From the sequence record OP555980.1: DNA of 64,000 bases; one strand, 5' to 3'. A program made the translations under genes and the position numbers. The notes beneath the pieces are model-generated. The model saw nothing but the letters and a program-made list of their open reading frames with translations, had not been told where the DNA came from and searched no databases. This DNA comes from Escherichia phage vB_EcoM-UFV06. The stretch's first letter is position 1. Every line of letters starts with the position of its first letter. This document shows, in pieces, positions 34,796 to 37,069 of this stretch.

Positions 34796-34826
34796 AAAAA
34801 GCCCCAACCTTTTGGTCGGGACTAAG
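34796..34826 (-). terminator. Intrinsic terminator, copy 1 of a 31-bp direct repeat
   Basis: Minus-strand 10-bp stem, AAAA loop, then UUUUU; 30/31 identical to 35351..35381. Confidence 0.7.
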
Positions 34827-34830
34827 AATG

Positions 34831-35304
34831 TTATTTGATTTGTTTAGCAGACCAAATGCGGTCTTTAATAATTTTTTGGATGTCTTCAACATACTCAAGA
34901 GAATGAGCATGTGGGTTATCTTTAAAGCTATGAGCACGAGCTAGCTTTTGGCCTTCAGTTTTGATTACTAAAAGCTCTTTAAGGATAGCTTCATATTTGG
35001 AGATAATTCCTTTAACGATATTTTTTTCTTGTGCGACTTTAGGATCTGCTTTAGGAGCAGGTTTACCCGAAGCCTTTGCAAAAGCAGCGCCAGTAGCAAC
35101 TAAACTTTTCCAGGCCATACTAACTGCATTTCCCGTAAATCCTTCCGCTTTCATGTCGCGTGCGAACTGGAATCGTGATTCATCAGAAGCATCTTTGTAA
35201 GAATATTTACCCGCTGCAATGGCTGCTTTTGCGACAGCTTGAATTTCGGTGCTAGATGCTTCATTTAACACCGCTTCATTTAAAAATTGAGTATATGATT
35301 TCAT
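34831..35304 (-). CDS. Putative capsid-targeted internal protein (157 aa), function unknown
   Basis: N-terminus MKSYTQFLNE resembles the capsid targeting sequence with an L-x-E site; late promoter upstream; flanked by duplicated terminators. Confidence 0.5.
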   Translation of the reverse strand: MKSYTQFLNEAVLNEASSTEIQAVAKAAIAAGKYSYKDASDESRFQFARDMKAEGFTGNAVSMAWKSLVATGAAFAKASGKPAPKADPKVAQEKNIVKGIISKYEAILKELLVIKTEGQKLARAHSFKDNPHAHSLEYVEDIQKIIKDRIWSAKQIK

Positions 35305-35340
35305 CTTATTTCCTGTTTTAATTCGTGGATTTAATATACT

Positions 35341-35348
35341 TATTTATA
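35341..35348 (-). promoter_or_regulatory. Late promoter box TATAAATA
   Basis: Perfect TATAAATA on the minus strand about 36 bp upstream of the ATG at 35304. Confidence 0.55.
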
Positions 35349-35350
35349 CT

Positions 35351-35381
35351 AAAAAGCCCCAACCTTTTGGTCGGGGCTAAG
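35351..35381 (-). terminator. Intrinsic terminator, copy 2 of the 31-bp direct repeat
   Basis: Minus-strand 10-bp stem, AAAA loop, then UUUUU. Confidence 0.7.
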
Positions 35382-35429
35382 CCTTGCGGCAACCTTGTCG
35401 GGGTTCCACCTGCTAAGGCAAGTGTTTGT

Positions 35430-35521
35430 ACGAAACGCCGGGATTCGAACCCGGTTATTAAGCAGTTGACGCTACTCAATATTTTTAAAAGGCCATATCT
35501 CGACCATATCCGAACGTTCCG
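35430..35521 (-). ncRNA. Candidate tRNA-like/structured small RNA
   Basis: Canonical T-arm ccggg-TTCGAAT-cccgg with an acceptor-like 7-bp pairing, but no clean D or anticodon arm; T4 is reported to encode stable RNAs near its tRNAs. Confidence 0.3.
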
Positions 35522-35685
35522 TCAAAAACGCTACTCGGCTTACGGCAAAGATATTTCCTCGAATCGATAATTCGGTGCGCCGTTTCTGCTGTGATAGTAA
35601 AGAGCCAGAACACAGTAAAACTGTGGGAGGAAACTATACTCCAGGGAACATCAGTCCGACGACTTACCGGTAGCGACCCGGTTTC

Positions 35686-36036
35686 TTAGTATTCTTTTAA
35701 AGCATCAATTTGTTCACGGCGTTTACGCCATAAATCAATTGCTTCATAAGCAGATTCAGCATTTCGAATTAGCCGACATTTATATAAAGACTTGTGATTT
35801 TGGTATTGCGTAGATAATGGAATTTTATCTAAAAGGTCTTTGCGTTCAAAGTATTCGTAACCATCTAAACCAAATGAACGATTTTTGAGAAATTGCCAAT
35901 GACCATATTCGTTTTCGACATAAACATAATCTGCATGCTGATAAAGCAAATTAATTACACGTTCAGAAATAACAGTATCATTATGATTAAAATAGAATGT
36001 TAAATCATGAACTACTAAATAAACATTACCTTTCAT
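35686..36036 (-). CDS. Hypothetical protein (116 aa)
   Basis: ORF immediately downstream of tRNA-Arg. Confidence 0.45.
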   Translation of the reverse strand: MKGNVYLVVHDLTFYFNHNDTVISERVINLLYQHADYVYVENEYGHWQFLKNRSFGLDGYEYFERKDLLDKIPLSTQYQNHKSLYKCRLIRNAESAYEAIDLWRKRREQIDALKEY

Positions 36037-36054: not shown

Positions 36055-36130
36055 TGGTCGAGGCAGTAGGGATCGAACCTACGACCCAGGACTTAGAAGG
36101 TCCTTGCTCTTCCTTCTGAGCTATGCCCCG
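36055..36130 (-). tRNA. tRNA-Arg (anticodon UCU)
   Basis: Hand-folded cloverleaf; anticodon loop CUUCUAA; CCA encoded. Confidence 0.8.
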
Positions 36131-36134
36131 TAAT

Positions 36135-36210
36135 TGGGGTGACCGATGGGAGTCGAACCCATGACTACGAGAATCACAATCTCGAGTTCTACCAACTGAA
36201 CTACGGCCAC
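36135..36210 (-). tRNA. tRNA-His (anticodon GUG)
   Basis: Cloverleaf; anticodon stem CGAGA/UCUCG, loop UUGUGAU; discriminator C73; no encoded G-1. Confidence 0.75.
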
Positions 36211-36324
36211 ATTAATACCTACTCCAACAATCATGATGTCTTCACACGAAATTAAGAGAAGAGTGATCAGTTCAACCCCTATAATCGCGTCAAGTAGATA
36301 TTAATGTGACAGTTGTCACAAATT

Positions 36325-36399
36325 TGGCGGACGTGATAGGATTCGAACCTATAACCAATCGCTTAACAGGCGATCGCTCTGCCATTGAGCTACACATCC
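36325..36399 (-). tRNA. tRNA-Asn (anticodon GUU)
   Basis: Cloverleaf; anticodon stem AUCGC/GCGAU, loop CUGUUAA. Confidence 0.75.
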
Positions 36400-36403
36400 A
36401 AAT

Positions 36404-36490
36404 TGGTGGGGAGTGATGGAGTCGAACCACCCGAGTCGCAATGACAATGAATTTACAGTCCACACCGCTACCTCTACGGGATAACTCCCC
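36404..36490 (-). tRNA. tRNA-Tyr (anticodon GUA), class II, probable
   Basis: 87 nt with long variable arm; GACUGUAAAU anticodon region as in bacterial tRNA-Tyr; anticodon stem has two G-U pairs. Confidence 0.55.
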
Positions 36491-36496
36491 TTAATT

Positions 36497-36571
36497 TGGT
36501 GGCCCTGGGTGGAATTGAACCACCATCTGGCGATTATGAGTCGCTTGCTTGAACCTTCCAGCTACAGGGCC
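36497..36571 (-). tRNA. tRNA with anticodon CAU (Ile2 or Met)
   Basis: Cloverleaf; loop CUCAUAA; T4 tRNA-Ile is reported to use a modified CAU-type anticodon. Confidence 0.7.
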
Positions 36572-36572
36572 T

Positions 36573-36648
36573 TGGTGCTGATTGACGGAATCGAACCGCC
36601 GACATCCTCATTACAAGTGAGGTGCTCTACCTACTGAGCTAAATCAGC
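36573..36648 (-). tRNA. tRNA-Thr (anticodon UGU)
   Basis: Cloverleaf; loop CUUGUAA. Confidence 0.8.
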
Positions 36649-36653
36649 AAAGC

Positions 36654-36743
36654 TGGCGGAGGCGATAGGATTTGAACCTATGAATCGCCGGAGCGACTGC
36701 CGGTTTTCAAGACCGGTGCATTAAACCACTCTGCCACGCCTCC
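36654..36743 (-). tRNA. tRNA-Ser (anticodon UGA), class II
   Basis: 90 nt; anticodon stem CCGGU/ACCGG, loop CUUGAAA; long variable arm. Confidence 0.8.
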
Positions 36744-36745
36744 AG

Positions 36746-36819
36746 TCTCCATACAAGGATTTGAACCTTGGACCTCCTGATCCCAAATCAGGCGCTCTAC
36801 CAAACTGAGCTACACGGAG
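36746..36819 (-). tRNA. tRNA-Pro (anticodon UGG)
   Basis: Cloverleaf; loop UUUGGGA; CCA not encoded. Confidence 0.75.
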
Positions 36820-36829
36820 TAAATTAAAT

Positions 36830-36903
<74 letters not shown>

Positions 36904-36908
36904 AAATT

Positions 36909-36995
36909 TGGTGCGAGAAGTGGGACTCGAACCCACAAGGAAATCATTCCGCAGCATTTTAAGTGCTGTGCCTTTACCAATTTGACCATTCTCGC
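36909..36995 (-). tRNA. tRNA-Leu (anticodon UAA), class II
   Basis: 87 nt; anticodon stem CAGCA/UGCUG, loop CUUAAAA. Confidence 0.8.
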
Positions 36996-36996
36996 G

Positions 36997-37069
36997 CTGG
37001 GAATAAAGGATTCGAACCTTTGCATCTAGCAGTCAAAGTGCTATGCCTTACCAACTTGGCTAATTCCCA
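36997..37069 (-). tRNA. tRNA-Gln (anticodon UUG)
   Basis: Cloverleaf; anticodon stem UAGCA/UGCUA, loop CUUUGAC; CCA not encoded. Confidence 0.75.

What the first reader, a model, noticed from the sequence alone, without database searches (positions are those of the whole stretch)
35386..35685. About 300 bp of non-coding sequence with a tRNA-like T-arm next to the tRNA cluster
Between terminator copy 2 and the ORF ending at 35686 there is no convincing ORF. The sequence contains a canonical T-arm (ccggg-TTCGAAT-cccgg) with an acceptor-like pairing (35430..35521) and further hairpins, but no clean D or anticodon arm. T4 is reported to encode small stable RNAs of unknown function near its tRNAs; this could be a counterpart, a degenerate tRNA, or a tRNA-like processing or mimicry element.
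Basis: partly seen in the sequence, partly recalled or inferred. Interest (0 to 1): 0.45.

Follow-up and report, generated by a model that had tools for sequence, protein, structure and literature searches.

The report
T4 small stable RNA genes rnaD/rnaC
The 300-bp "non-coding" stretch holds, on the minus strand, this T2-like phage's copies of the two small stable RNAs long known from phage T4 (species 2/rnaD and species 1/rnaC); the genes are already known and their function is still unknown.

Summary
The window is a Tequatrovirus, 100% identical here to Escherichia phage vB_EcoM-UFV09. On the minus strand, 35689..35574 is the orthologue of T4 rnaD (species 2). 35566..35430 is the orthologue of T4 rnaC (species 1, 135/137 identical). 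An intrinsic terminator follows at 35378..35355. GenBank AJ880101 (phage T2L) already annotates this same layout: tRNA-Arg, a 116-aa ORF, rnaD, rnaC. Rfam has no family for either RNA, and ARAGORN finds nothing here.

The T arm belongs to rnaC. In 30 distinct homologues from at least eight named phage genera, the 3' tail instead pairs with the extreme 5' end. This gives a cloverleaf-like RNA: a 7-position acceptor-like stem, a 71-nt arm, a 26-nt arm and the T arm. 98% of pair cells are paired, and 25 of 43 pairs show compensatory changes. The loops of the two non-tRNA arms (UUGACG, CGUCAA) are complementary in all 30, with one compensatory change in Marfavirus.

Separately, a published convergent host-adaptation SNP in phage BW-1 restores a base pair in the central hairpin of rnaD. 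This window carries the intact allele.

Verdict: already known, function open, modest interest.

The parts
35574..35689 (-). rnaD orthologue (T4 species 2 RNA), 116 nt. The 5' ~45 nt and 3' ~25 nt are essentially invariant among relatives. The central ~45 nt is of the T2 type and differs from T4.
   Evidence: Alignment to T4 rnaD 71171..71053. Same limits as rnaD in the T2L record AJ880101. 12 variants aligned. Four variants with different central sequences give the same predicted shape.
35666..35682 (-). rnaD 5' hairpin ACCGG-GUCGCUA-CCGGU: 5-bp stem, 7-nt loop, invariant in all 12 variants.
   Evidence: The '+ strand terminator-like site' is its complement.
35611..35625 (-). rnaD central hairpin CACAG-UUUUA-CUGUG. 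G35613 pairs with C35623. This is the position of the convergent adaptive SNP reported in phage BW-1.
   Evidence: The BW-1 ancestor has A here (a C.A mismatch, MFE -25.9). With G, as in this window, the MFE is -31.0 kcal/mol and the fold matches the window and T4 shape.
35567..35573 (-). Spacer GAAUUAU between rnaD and rnaC. An A/U-rich spacer also precedes rnaC in most other genera, where it follows a tRNA 3' end: AAUUAU in Moon, SonariX, ZX13 and EcS1; AAUAAU, AACAAU or AAUAUU in several others. Kanagawavirus- and Marfavirus-type copies have a different upstream sequence.
35430..35566 (-). rnaC orthologue (T4 species 1 RNA), 137 nt using the ends given in GenBank X03016 (NC_000866 adds one nt at each end: 35429-35567). 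It forms a cloverleaf-like, tRNA-shaped RNA.
   Evidence: 135/137 identical to T4. Own covariance model gives 165 bits, E = 3.5e-31, the only hit in the window. Covariation. MFE z = -4.4.
35560..35566 (-). rnaC acceptor-like stem, 5' strand CGAUUCG.
   Evidence: Pairs with 35437..35431. 99.3% of cells paired. One covarying pair (A-U in 14, G-C in 16 sequences). Two central U.U positions.
35489..35559 (-). rnaC long arm P2 (71 nt), in the position of a tRNA D arm. Apical loop UUGACG at 35525..35520.
   Evidence: Fourteen of its 18 pairs show compensatory changes (helices 2-6).
35456..35481 (-). rnaC arm P3 (10-bp stem), in the position of the anticodon arm. Loop CGUCAA at 35471..35466, complementary to the P2 loop (proposed kissing loop).
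   Evidence: 8 of 9 counted pairs are compensatory. The loop-loop pairing is intact in 30/30 sequences, and Marfavirus has UUGGCG with CGCCAA.
35438..35454 (-). rnaC T arm CCGGG-UUCGAAU-CCCGG.
   Evidence: One stem pair covaries (U-A 15 / G-C 13). Loop variants keep U54 U55 C56 R57 A58, except in phage CIP9 and contig L084.
35431..35437 (-). rnaC acceptor-like stem, 3' strand CGUUUCG, directly after the T stem. U35430 sits at the discriminator position and is the annotated 3' end.
35386..35429 (-). 3' trailer with an imperfect hairpin that contains a degenerate copy of the terminator sequence (CCCCGAC..AAGGUU).
35350..35378 (-). Intrinsic terminator of the tRNA-rnaD-rnaC transcription unit: 10-bp stem (35378..35355) followed by the U run 35354..35350.
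   Evidence: Homologous to the T4 terminator annotated in X03016.

Best explanation
On the minus strand, the stretch encodes the last two genes of the phage's tRNA transcription unit. These are rnaD (35689..35574) and rnaC (35566..35430), the orthologues of T4 species 2 and species 1 small stable RNAs. They are followed by the unit's intrinsic terminator.

Shown here:
- Homology, synteny and strand.
- A conserved cloverleaf-like fold for rnaC. Its 5' and 3' ends form a 7-position acceptor-like stem that continues straight into a canonical T arm.
- Two other arms take the places of the D and anticodon arms, and their loops are mutually complementary.
- The RNA ends annotated for T4 fall exactly on the first nucleotide of that stem and on the discriminator position.

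Inferred:
- rnaC is cut out of the precursor the way tRNAs are, by RNase P at the 5' end and by trimming at the 3' end. It is stable because it is compact and looks like a tRNA to the cell.
- Its job is most likely to engage a protein that recognises the acceptor/T-arm half of tRNA, as a mimic or decoy that matters only in some hosts. It is unlikely to decode or to base-pair with mRNAs.
- rnaD is a rod-shaped companion RNA whose central hairpin has to be intact for full virulence on at least one natural E. coli host.

The biological function of both RNAs remains experimentally unknown.
For: Identity:
- Near base-for-base alignment with T4 rnaD/rnaC/terminator; rnaC is 135/137 identical.
- The T2L record AJ880101 annotates the same order (tRNA-Arg, trna.2 CDS, rnaD, rnaC). 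It differs from the window at 5 of about 260 nt.
- The stretch lies on the same strand as, and downstream of, 11 tRNA genes, with a terminator after it.

rnaC structure:
- On 30 distinct sequences, 98.0% of pair cells are paired, against 39-49% when partners are slid. 25 of 43 pairs have compensatory changes, and 0 of 500 shuffles reach the observed values for four of the five measures (3 of 500 for the fifth).
- The single-sequence MFE gives the same fold, z = -4.4.
- The loop-loop pairing is complementary in 30/30, with one double change (A-U to G-C) in Marfavirus.

Processing:
- X03016 places species 1 RNA from C of CGAUUCG to the U after CGUUUCG.
- In Moon-, Karam- and Gelderlandvirus, rnaC sits directly between two tRNA genes.
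- Marfavirus copies read ...CCGU-CCA.
- T-loop variants keep the tRNA pattern UUCRA.

Expression:
- T4 RNAC and RNAD were detected by RNA-seq, and the paper reports validating them by Northern blot (the probe described is for RNAC); both were classed as late RNAs (PMC9697503).

Host-specific role:
- All three BW-1 lines adapted to ECOR34 share a single SNP in rnaD (PMC12685909).
- I find that this SNP restores the C-G pair equivalent to 35623-35613.
Against: - No experiment on this phage was available. Ends, stability and modifications are carried over from T4.
- The acceptor-like stem has only 5 Watson-Crick pairs and two U.U positions. Only one of its pairs covaries, and that split follows the phylogeny, so it may reflect very few events.
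- The kissing loop rests on a single compensatory event. The complementarity could also serve dimerisation or an alternative fold.
- Two relatives (phage CIP9 and contig L084) lack the canonical T loop. This weakens any model that needs T-loop recognition.
- The window's rnaD fold is no more stable than shuffled sequence (z = -0.3), and its conserved parts are invariant, so nothing about them can be tested by covariation.
- Reviews state that the function is unknown (PMC3014915).
- From my own recollection of the older T4 literature, not checked here: deletions of the T4 tRNA region are viable on laboratory hosts.
Confidence: 0.8

Rival explanations
1. The two RNAs are evolutionary leftovers, degenerate tRNA genes. 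They persist only as processing and terminator scaffolding for the tRNA operon: they give nucleases defined sites and protect the 3' end. They have no function of their own as free RNAs.
For: - rnaC occupies a tRNA slot between tRNA genes in several genera.
- rnaD is restricted to T4-near genera, and its centre has been swapped between lineages.
- T4 rnaD ends in ...ACCA, like a tRNA.
- ARAGORN even calls one rnaC copy a 95-nt 'tRNA-Met'.
- No function was found in 50 years.
Against: - A relic would not keep two 6-nt loops and a 14-nt 5' box invariant, or maintain four helices by compensatory change, across at least eight genera.
- The RNAs accumulate as discrete stable species.
- A single rnaD base change was selected three times independently, and it restores a pair.
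Confidence: 0.2
2. They are trans-acting regulatory small RNAs that base-pair with host or phage mRNAs.
For: - They are classed as late RNAs and loosely called 'regulatory' in recent papers.
- rnaD has long invariant segments that could be seed regions.
- The BW-1 authors favour a regulatory reading.
Against: - Nearly all conserved nucleotides of rnaC lie in helices or in the loop-loop pair.
- No complementary or similar stretch was detectable in 5,426 E. coli genomes, although BLAST is a weak test for short seeds.
- The adaptive BW-1 change restores a stem pair; it does not alter a single-stranded segment.
- No small trans-acting regulatory RNA from T4 had been functionally characterised as of 2010.
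Confidence: 0.12
3. The stretch is protein-coding after all, as several GenBank records of close relatives imply by placing small 'hypothetical protein' CDSs on it.
For: - Records such as vB_EcoM-UFV09 list four hypothetical proteins under a 451-bp query, where only two flanking genes are expected.
- ORFs of 24-81 aa exist there.
Against: - Substitutions among relatives are paired across stems, and indels are tolerated.
- The T4 and T2L records annotate RNAs here.
- T4 RNAC was detected by Northern blot and both RNAs by RNA-seq.
Confidence: 0.02

Closest known systems
Phage T4 species 1 RNA (rnaC) and species 2 RNA (rnaD), and their annotated copies in phage T2L (GenBank AJ880101)
   Same: - Same genes. 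rnaC is 135/137 identical to T4.
- rnaD shares the invariant 5' and 3' modules.
- Same strand, same position at the end of the tRNA cluster, same terminator.
- The layout is identical to T2L, including the 116-aa ORF whose stop codon overlaps the start of rnaD.
   Different: - Compared with T4, a 116-aa ORF separates tRNA-Arg from rnaD, where T4 has a 1-nt spacer.
- The central ~45 nt of rnaD is a different sequence with the same predicted rod shape.
- The T4 rnaD 3' end ...ACCA reads ...ACCG here.
- An extra ORF with a second terminator copy follows.
Transfer RNA (Rfam RF00005)
   Same: - A four-arm layout in the same order.
- A 7-position stem made by the two ends, running straight into a 5-bp T stem with a UUCGAAU loop.
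- One unpaired nucleotide after the stem at the annotated 3' end.
- The gene is embedded among tRNA genes.
   Different: - No D arm and no 7-nt anticodon loop.
- A 71-nt arm and a 10-bp arm with a 6-nt loop stand in their places, and those two loops pair with each other.
- Two U.U positions in the acceptor stem.
- ACA instead of CCA after the discriminator.
- Not detected by ARAGORN or by the Rfam tRNA model.
tRNA-like domains of other non-tRNA molecules (tmRNA, bacterial Y-RNA-like YrlA, plant-virus 3' tRNA-like structures, mascRNA)
   Same: An acceptor/T-arm half that imitates tRNA is joined to a non-tRNA body. The general idea is that tRNA enzymes are used for maturation or recruitment. (Comparison from established knowledge of these families.)
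   Different: No sequence or model match. ARAGORN finds no tmRNA. In the E-value scan, the YrlA and mascRNA models score only on the true tRNA genes, not here. There is no tag reading frame and no Ro-binding stem.
Phage-encoded tRNAs that counter tRNA-targeting defences (for example the T5 tRNA that neutralises PARIS, PMC11464382)
   Same: A phage RNA of tRNA shape, dispensable in laboratory hosts, whose value would depend on the host's defence repertoire.
   Different: Those are functional, decodable tRNAs. rnaC has no anticodon loop, and no link to any defence system has been shown. This is an analogy for the proposed function only.

Membership tests
T4-type rnaC (species 1 RNA) | Sequence homology to T4 rnaC over its whole length | tested here: met
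   135/137 identical; alignment; own covariance model gives 165 bits.
T4-type rnaC (species 1 RNA) | Position: distal end of the tRNA gene cluster, same strand, followed by an intrinsic terminator | tested here: met
T4-type rnaC (species 1 RNA) | Accumulates as a discrete stable RNA of about 140 nt during infection | not testable with these tools
   Reported for T4 only (Northern blot with an RNAC probe, PMC9697503).
T4-type rnaD (species 2 RNA) | Sequence homology to T4 rnaD | tested here: met
   The 5' ~45 nt and 3' ~25 nt are near identical. The centre is replaced. The T2L record uses the same criterion: 'predicted by 5'- and 3'-end homology'.
T4-type rnaD (species 2 RNA) | Lies immediately upstream of rnaC, separated by the AAUUA spacer | tested here: met
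T4-type rnaD (species 2 RNA) | Follows tRNA-Arg directly, as in T4 | tested here: not met
   ORF116 (35686-36036) intervenes, as in T2L. This is a feature of the T4 layout, not of the RNA itself.
tRNA (RF00005 / ARAGORN) | Cloverleaf with D arm, 7-nt anticodon loop and T arm, scoring above the model threshold | tested here: not met
   No ARAGORN call. No RF00005 hit at the gathering score or at E <= 10. Only tRNA-Sec at 16.6 bits against 47.
tmRNA | tRNA-like ends plus a tag-peptide reading frame | tested here: not met
   ARAGORN reports no tmRNA, and there is no Rfam hit.
Any curated Rfam 15 family | Match at the family's gathering score | tested here: not met
   Only the tRNA genes match in the window. 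Matches within 35340-35700 are all below 17 bits.

The most novel reading that the evidence does not exclude
rnaC is a purpose-built tRNA mimic. Its acceptor/T-arm half is presented on a rigid body that is locked by a kissing loop. It binds or diverts a tRNA-recognising host factor, for example a tRNA-targeting defence nuclease or a tRNA-modifying or charging enzyme. rnaD works with it. This would explain why a single base change that repairs the rnaD hairpin was selected three times when a close relative adapted to a semi-permissive E. coli host. If true, the 50-year-old question of what the T4 species 1 and 2 RNAs do becomes directly testable, with defined structure mutants and a defined host (ECOR34).
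Probability: 0.2. Interest if true: 0.7.

Novelty: already known. Interest (0 to 1): 0.3.

Why it matters
For annotation, these two RNA genes are missed by Rfam, ARAGORN and most phage pipelines. In many GenBank records they are left blank, covered by spurious small CDSs, or in one case called a 95-nt tRNA.

For biology, nothing new is discovered by finding them here. The comparison does give two usable handles on RNAs whose role has been unknown since the 1970s:
- a fold for rnaC supported by covariation, whose ends match the mapped RNA ends and which includes a testable loop-loop contact;
- the observation that a published adaptive SNP repairs a base pair in rnaD.

Tried and rejected
- Rfam at gathering and at E-value thresholds gave nothing but tRNAs and sub-threshold noise.
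- ARAGORN made no call in the stretch.
- Pfam and PHROGs on the flanking ORFs gave only families of unknown function.
- BLAST of rnaD + rnaC against 5,426 E. coli genomes found no match, so there is no host homologue and no long antisense target.
- A loose pattern scan of IMG/VR returned 120 loci. Of the roughly 95 I re-searched with the covariance model, all but six were chance matches.
- Exact-pattern scans of IMG/VR and of the metagenome collection added only a few new variants.
- RNAalifold on rnaD could not test its conserved modules, because they are invariant and the centres of the three types are not alignable.
- A TATAAAT-like motif inside ORF116 (35789..35781) was considered as a late promoter for rnaD. 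I dropped it because T2L has a C in it.
- Literature searches for a demonstrated function found none. The T4 genome review (PMC150520) is not in the held library.

Full report
**What the window is.**
The 451 bp around the finding are 100% identical to Escherichia phage vB_EcoM-UFV09. They match 760 phage records at 80% identity or more, nearly all of them T4-like phages of enterobacteria. ARAGORN finds 11 tRNA genes at 36055-37069, all on the minus strand. The stretch under study therefore lies downstream of a tRNA cluster when read on the minus strand.

**Checking the observation.**
It reads that way on the minus strand at 35454..35438.
ACGGAACG (35522..35515) pairs with CGUUUCGU (35437..35430).
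- Rfam's tRNA-Sec model weakly picks up the same span, at 16.6 bits against a threshold of 47 and E = 3.7.
- Only short, unsupported ORFs overlap the stretch.
- Rfam at gathering thresholds reports only the tRNA genes, and ARAGORN reports nothing here.
- The 305 nt fold better than shuffled sequence, z = -3.0.

**Identity.**
- The T4 reference genome annotates two miscellaneous RNAs right after tRNA-Arg: rnaD (species 2 RNA, 71053-71171) and rnaC (species 1 RNA, 70908-71046).
- The minus strand of the window aligns with T4 rnaD, the spacer, rnaC, the trailer and the terminator almost base for base. The exception is about 45 nt in the middle of rnaD.
- By that alignment, rnaD is 35689..35574. 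rnaC is 35566..35430, using the ends given in the older T4 record X03016. rnaC is 135/137 identical to T4.
- The terminator hairpin is 35378..35355.
- The phage T2L tRNA-cluster record AJ880101 already annotates exactly this layout. It lists tRNA-Arg, a 351-nt CDS called trna.2, rnaD of 116 nt and rnaC.
- That record labels rnaD 'putative; predicted by 5'- and 3'-end homology with T4 species II RNA', and its start overlaps the stop codon of the CDS.
- The window differs from T2L at 5 of about 260 nt across rnaD and rnaC. Its ORF116 is 113/116 identical to the T2L trna.2 protein.
- The paper behind that record maps the species I and II genes of T2L (PMC2330249).

The genes are therefore known, and known in this arrangement.

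**What is known about them.**
- A 2010 review says the biological roles of RNAC and RNAD are unknown (PMC3014915).
- A 2022 transcriptome study classes both as late RNAs 'of yet unknown functions' and reports validating them by Northern blot, for which an RNAC probe is described (PMC9697503).
- A 2025 evolution experiment with phage BW-1 found one shared SNP in all three lines adapted to host ECOR34. BW-1 is 97% identical to the window here. The authors placed the SNP in the rnaD homologue (PMC12685909).
- I found no paper that demonstrates a function.

**Distribution.**
- Sensitive BLAST shows rnaD plus rnaC together in Tequatrovirus, Gaprivervirus, Dhakavirus and Mosigvirus.
- rnaC alone occurs in Moonvirus, Karamvirus, Kanagawavirus, Gelderlandvirus, Marfavirus and unclassified relatives.
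- In several of the rnaC-only genera, rnaC sits directly between two tRNA genes. It comes after the ...CCA of tRNA-Trp or tRNA-Met plus an AAUUA-like spacer, and a few nucleotides before tRNA-Gly.
- One record, and ARAGORN itself, call part of it a 95-nt 'tRNA-Met'.

**Structure of rnaC.**
I collected 30 distinct homologues and aligned them with MAFFT, without reference to any structure.

RNAalifold predicts a four-arm fold:
- The 5' box CGAUUCG (35566..35560) pairs with the 3' tail CGUUUCG (35437..35431).
- A 71-nt arm P2 spans 35559..35489.
- A 7-nt A-rich linker follows.
- A 26-nt arm P3 spans 35481..35456.
- One further nucleotide leads into the T arm (35454..35438), which runs directly into the 3' tail.

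Counting pairs on the alignment gives strong support:
- 98.0% of cells are paired, against 39-49% when partners are slid by 1-3 columns.
- 25 of 43 pairs have compensatory changes.
- None of 500 column shuffles reaches the observed values for four of the five measures, and 3 of 500 do for the fifth.

The stem made by the two ends has one covarying pair (A-U in 14 sequences, G-C in 16) and two constant U.U positions.

It is 86% paired, has no compensatory change, and is broken in 14/30 and 11/30 sequences at two positions.

The window sequence on its own folds into the same cloverleaf-like shape at -50.1 kcal/mol, z = -4.4.

A covariance model built from the alignment finds one copy in the window at 165 bits. 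It also recovers further copies in other phages, including unannotated ones in RB69 and CIP9.

**Loop-loop contact.**
The P2 loop UUGACG (35525..35520) and the P3 loop CGUCAA (35471..35466) are exact reverse complements in every sequence. In the Marfavirus group they read UUGGCG and CGCCAA, which is a compensatory double change.

This is one evolutionary event on top of a complementarity with roughly a 1 in 4,000 chance per loop pair. I regard the contact as likely but not proven. It could also be an intermolecular contact.

**Ends.**
X03016 annotates species 1 RNA from the C of CGAUUCG to the U that follows CGUUUCG. That is, it runs from the first nucleotide of the stem to the position a tRNA discriminator would occupy.

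This agreement between independently annotated ends and the predicted stem is the main reason to infer tRNA-type maturation, with RNase P at the 5' end and trimming at the 3' end.

After that U, T4-like copies read ACA and Marfavirus copies read CCA.

The T loop varies only in the way tRNA T loops do (UUCRA kept). The exceptions are phage CIP9 and contig L084, which have UGCAUGC.

**rnaD.**
Among 12 variants, the first ~45 nt and the last ~25 nt are invariant. The centre comes in three unrelated versions. T4, the window and two other variants still give the same predicted shape: a 5' hairpin (35682..35666) followed by one long irregular rod.

The fold energies are not unusual, with z = -0.3 for the window. 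The invariant parts cannot be tested by covariation.

Mapping the BW-1 SNP onto the window gives position 35613. The deposited BW-1 sequence has A there in the RNA sense, opposite C35623, in the middle of the 5-bp hairpin CACAG-UUUUA-CUGUG. The reported T-to-C change makes it G.

That change restores the pair, lowers the predicted energy from -25.9 to -31.0 kcal/mol and recovers the common rod shape. The window, T2L and most relatives already carry G.

The direction of the change is inferred from two things: the paper's wording ('T-C transition'), and the deposited record being the ancestor.

**How it most likely works.**

Shown:
- The gene identities.
- The conserved fold of rnaC.
- The loop complementarity.
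- The match between the annotated T4 ends and the stem.
- The structural effect of the BW-1 SNP.

Inferred:
- Both RNAs are cut from the tRNA-operon transcript, which here also carries ORF116.
- rnaC is matured like a tRNA.
- It acts through its tRNA-like half on a tRNA-recognising protein, in a way that matters only in some hosts.

Rival readings:
- A functionless relic that serves operon processing. This is hard to square with invariant loops and compensated stems across at least eight genera.
- A base-pairing regulator. The conserved nucleotides are mostly structural, and no match was found in E. coli genomes, though that is a weak test.
- Small proteins. This is contradicted by the substitution pattern.

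**Comparison with known families, and verdict.**
This is a member of the T4 rnaC/rnaD gene pair by homology and synteny. It is not a tRNA or a tmRNA, and it does not belong to any Rfam family by the tests run.

Its remaining interest lies in the unresolved function and in the two structural leads above.

Noticed in passing
window 36211-36324 (minus strand): The 114-nt spacer between tRNA-Asn and tRNA-His folds into one long hairpin (MFE -37.9 kcal/mol, z = -3.8, 0 of 200 shuffles as good). It has no Rfam or ARAGORN match. It could be a processing site, or a remnant of an insertion in the tRNA cluster.
   Followed up: partly
window 34800-35378: ORF157 (34831-35304, minus strand; PHROG 2280, unknown function) is bracketed by two nearly identical terminators (35378..35355 and 34823..34800). 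It is preceded by the T4 late-promoter motif TATAAATA (35348..35341). T4 and T2L lack this ORF at this place, so it looks like an inserted cassette that duplicated the terminator.
   Followed up: partly
window 35686-36036 (minus strand): ORF116 (PHROG 3355, unknown function, no Pfam hit) lies between tRNA-Arg and rnaD, and its stop codon overlaps the first nucleotides of rnaD. It equals the 'trna.2' protein of phage T2L (113/116 identical). T4 has nothing here.
   Followed up: partly
GenBank records of close relatives (e.g. MZ291552.2, hits H1-H4): Four 'hypothetical protein' features lie under a 451-bp query where only two flanking genes are expected. Spurious small CDSs appear to have been annotated over rnaC and rnaD. 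Most other records leave the RNAs unannotated.
   Followed up: no
L004:1554-1648 (Enterobacter phage SonariX): The record and ARAGORN both call the 3' two-thirds of rnaC a 95-nt 'tRNA-Met (CAT)'. This is a false tRNA call that uses the non-conserved acceptor pairing.
   Followed up: yes
L162:221-369 (Enterobacter phage CIP9) and L084:5956-6104: These rnaC copies keep every helix but have UGCAUGC in place of the canonical T loop UUCGAAU. The T-loop sequence is therefore not indispensable for whatever rnaC does.
   Followed up: partly
L038, L039, L046, L068, L075 (Marfavirus-type rnaC): The nucleotides after the acceptor-like stem read U-CCA, an encoded CCA end, whereas T4-like copies read U-ACA. 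The same group carries the compensatory change in the two kissing loops.
   Followed up: partly
window 35666-35682 (plus strand): The consensus scan reports a 'terminator-like' site on the plus strand. It is simply the complement of the invariant 5' hairpin of rnaD followed by a T-rich run, and it is an artefact.
   Followed up: yes
L161:423-570 (phage RB69, NC_004928 about 74155-74302): RB69 has a full-scoring rnaC copy (162 bits) and the 3' module of rnaD in an intergenic gap. The reference record has no annotation there.
   Followed up: partly
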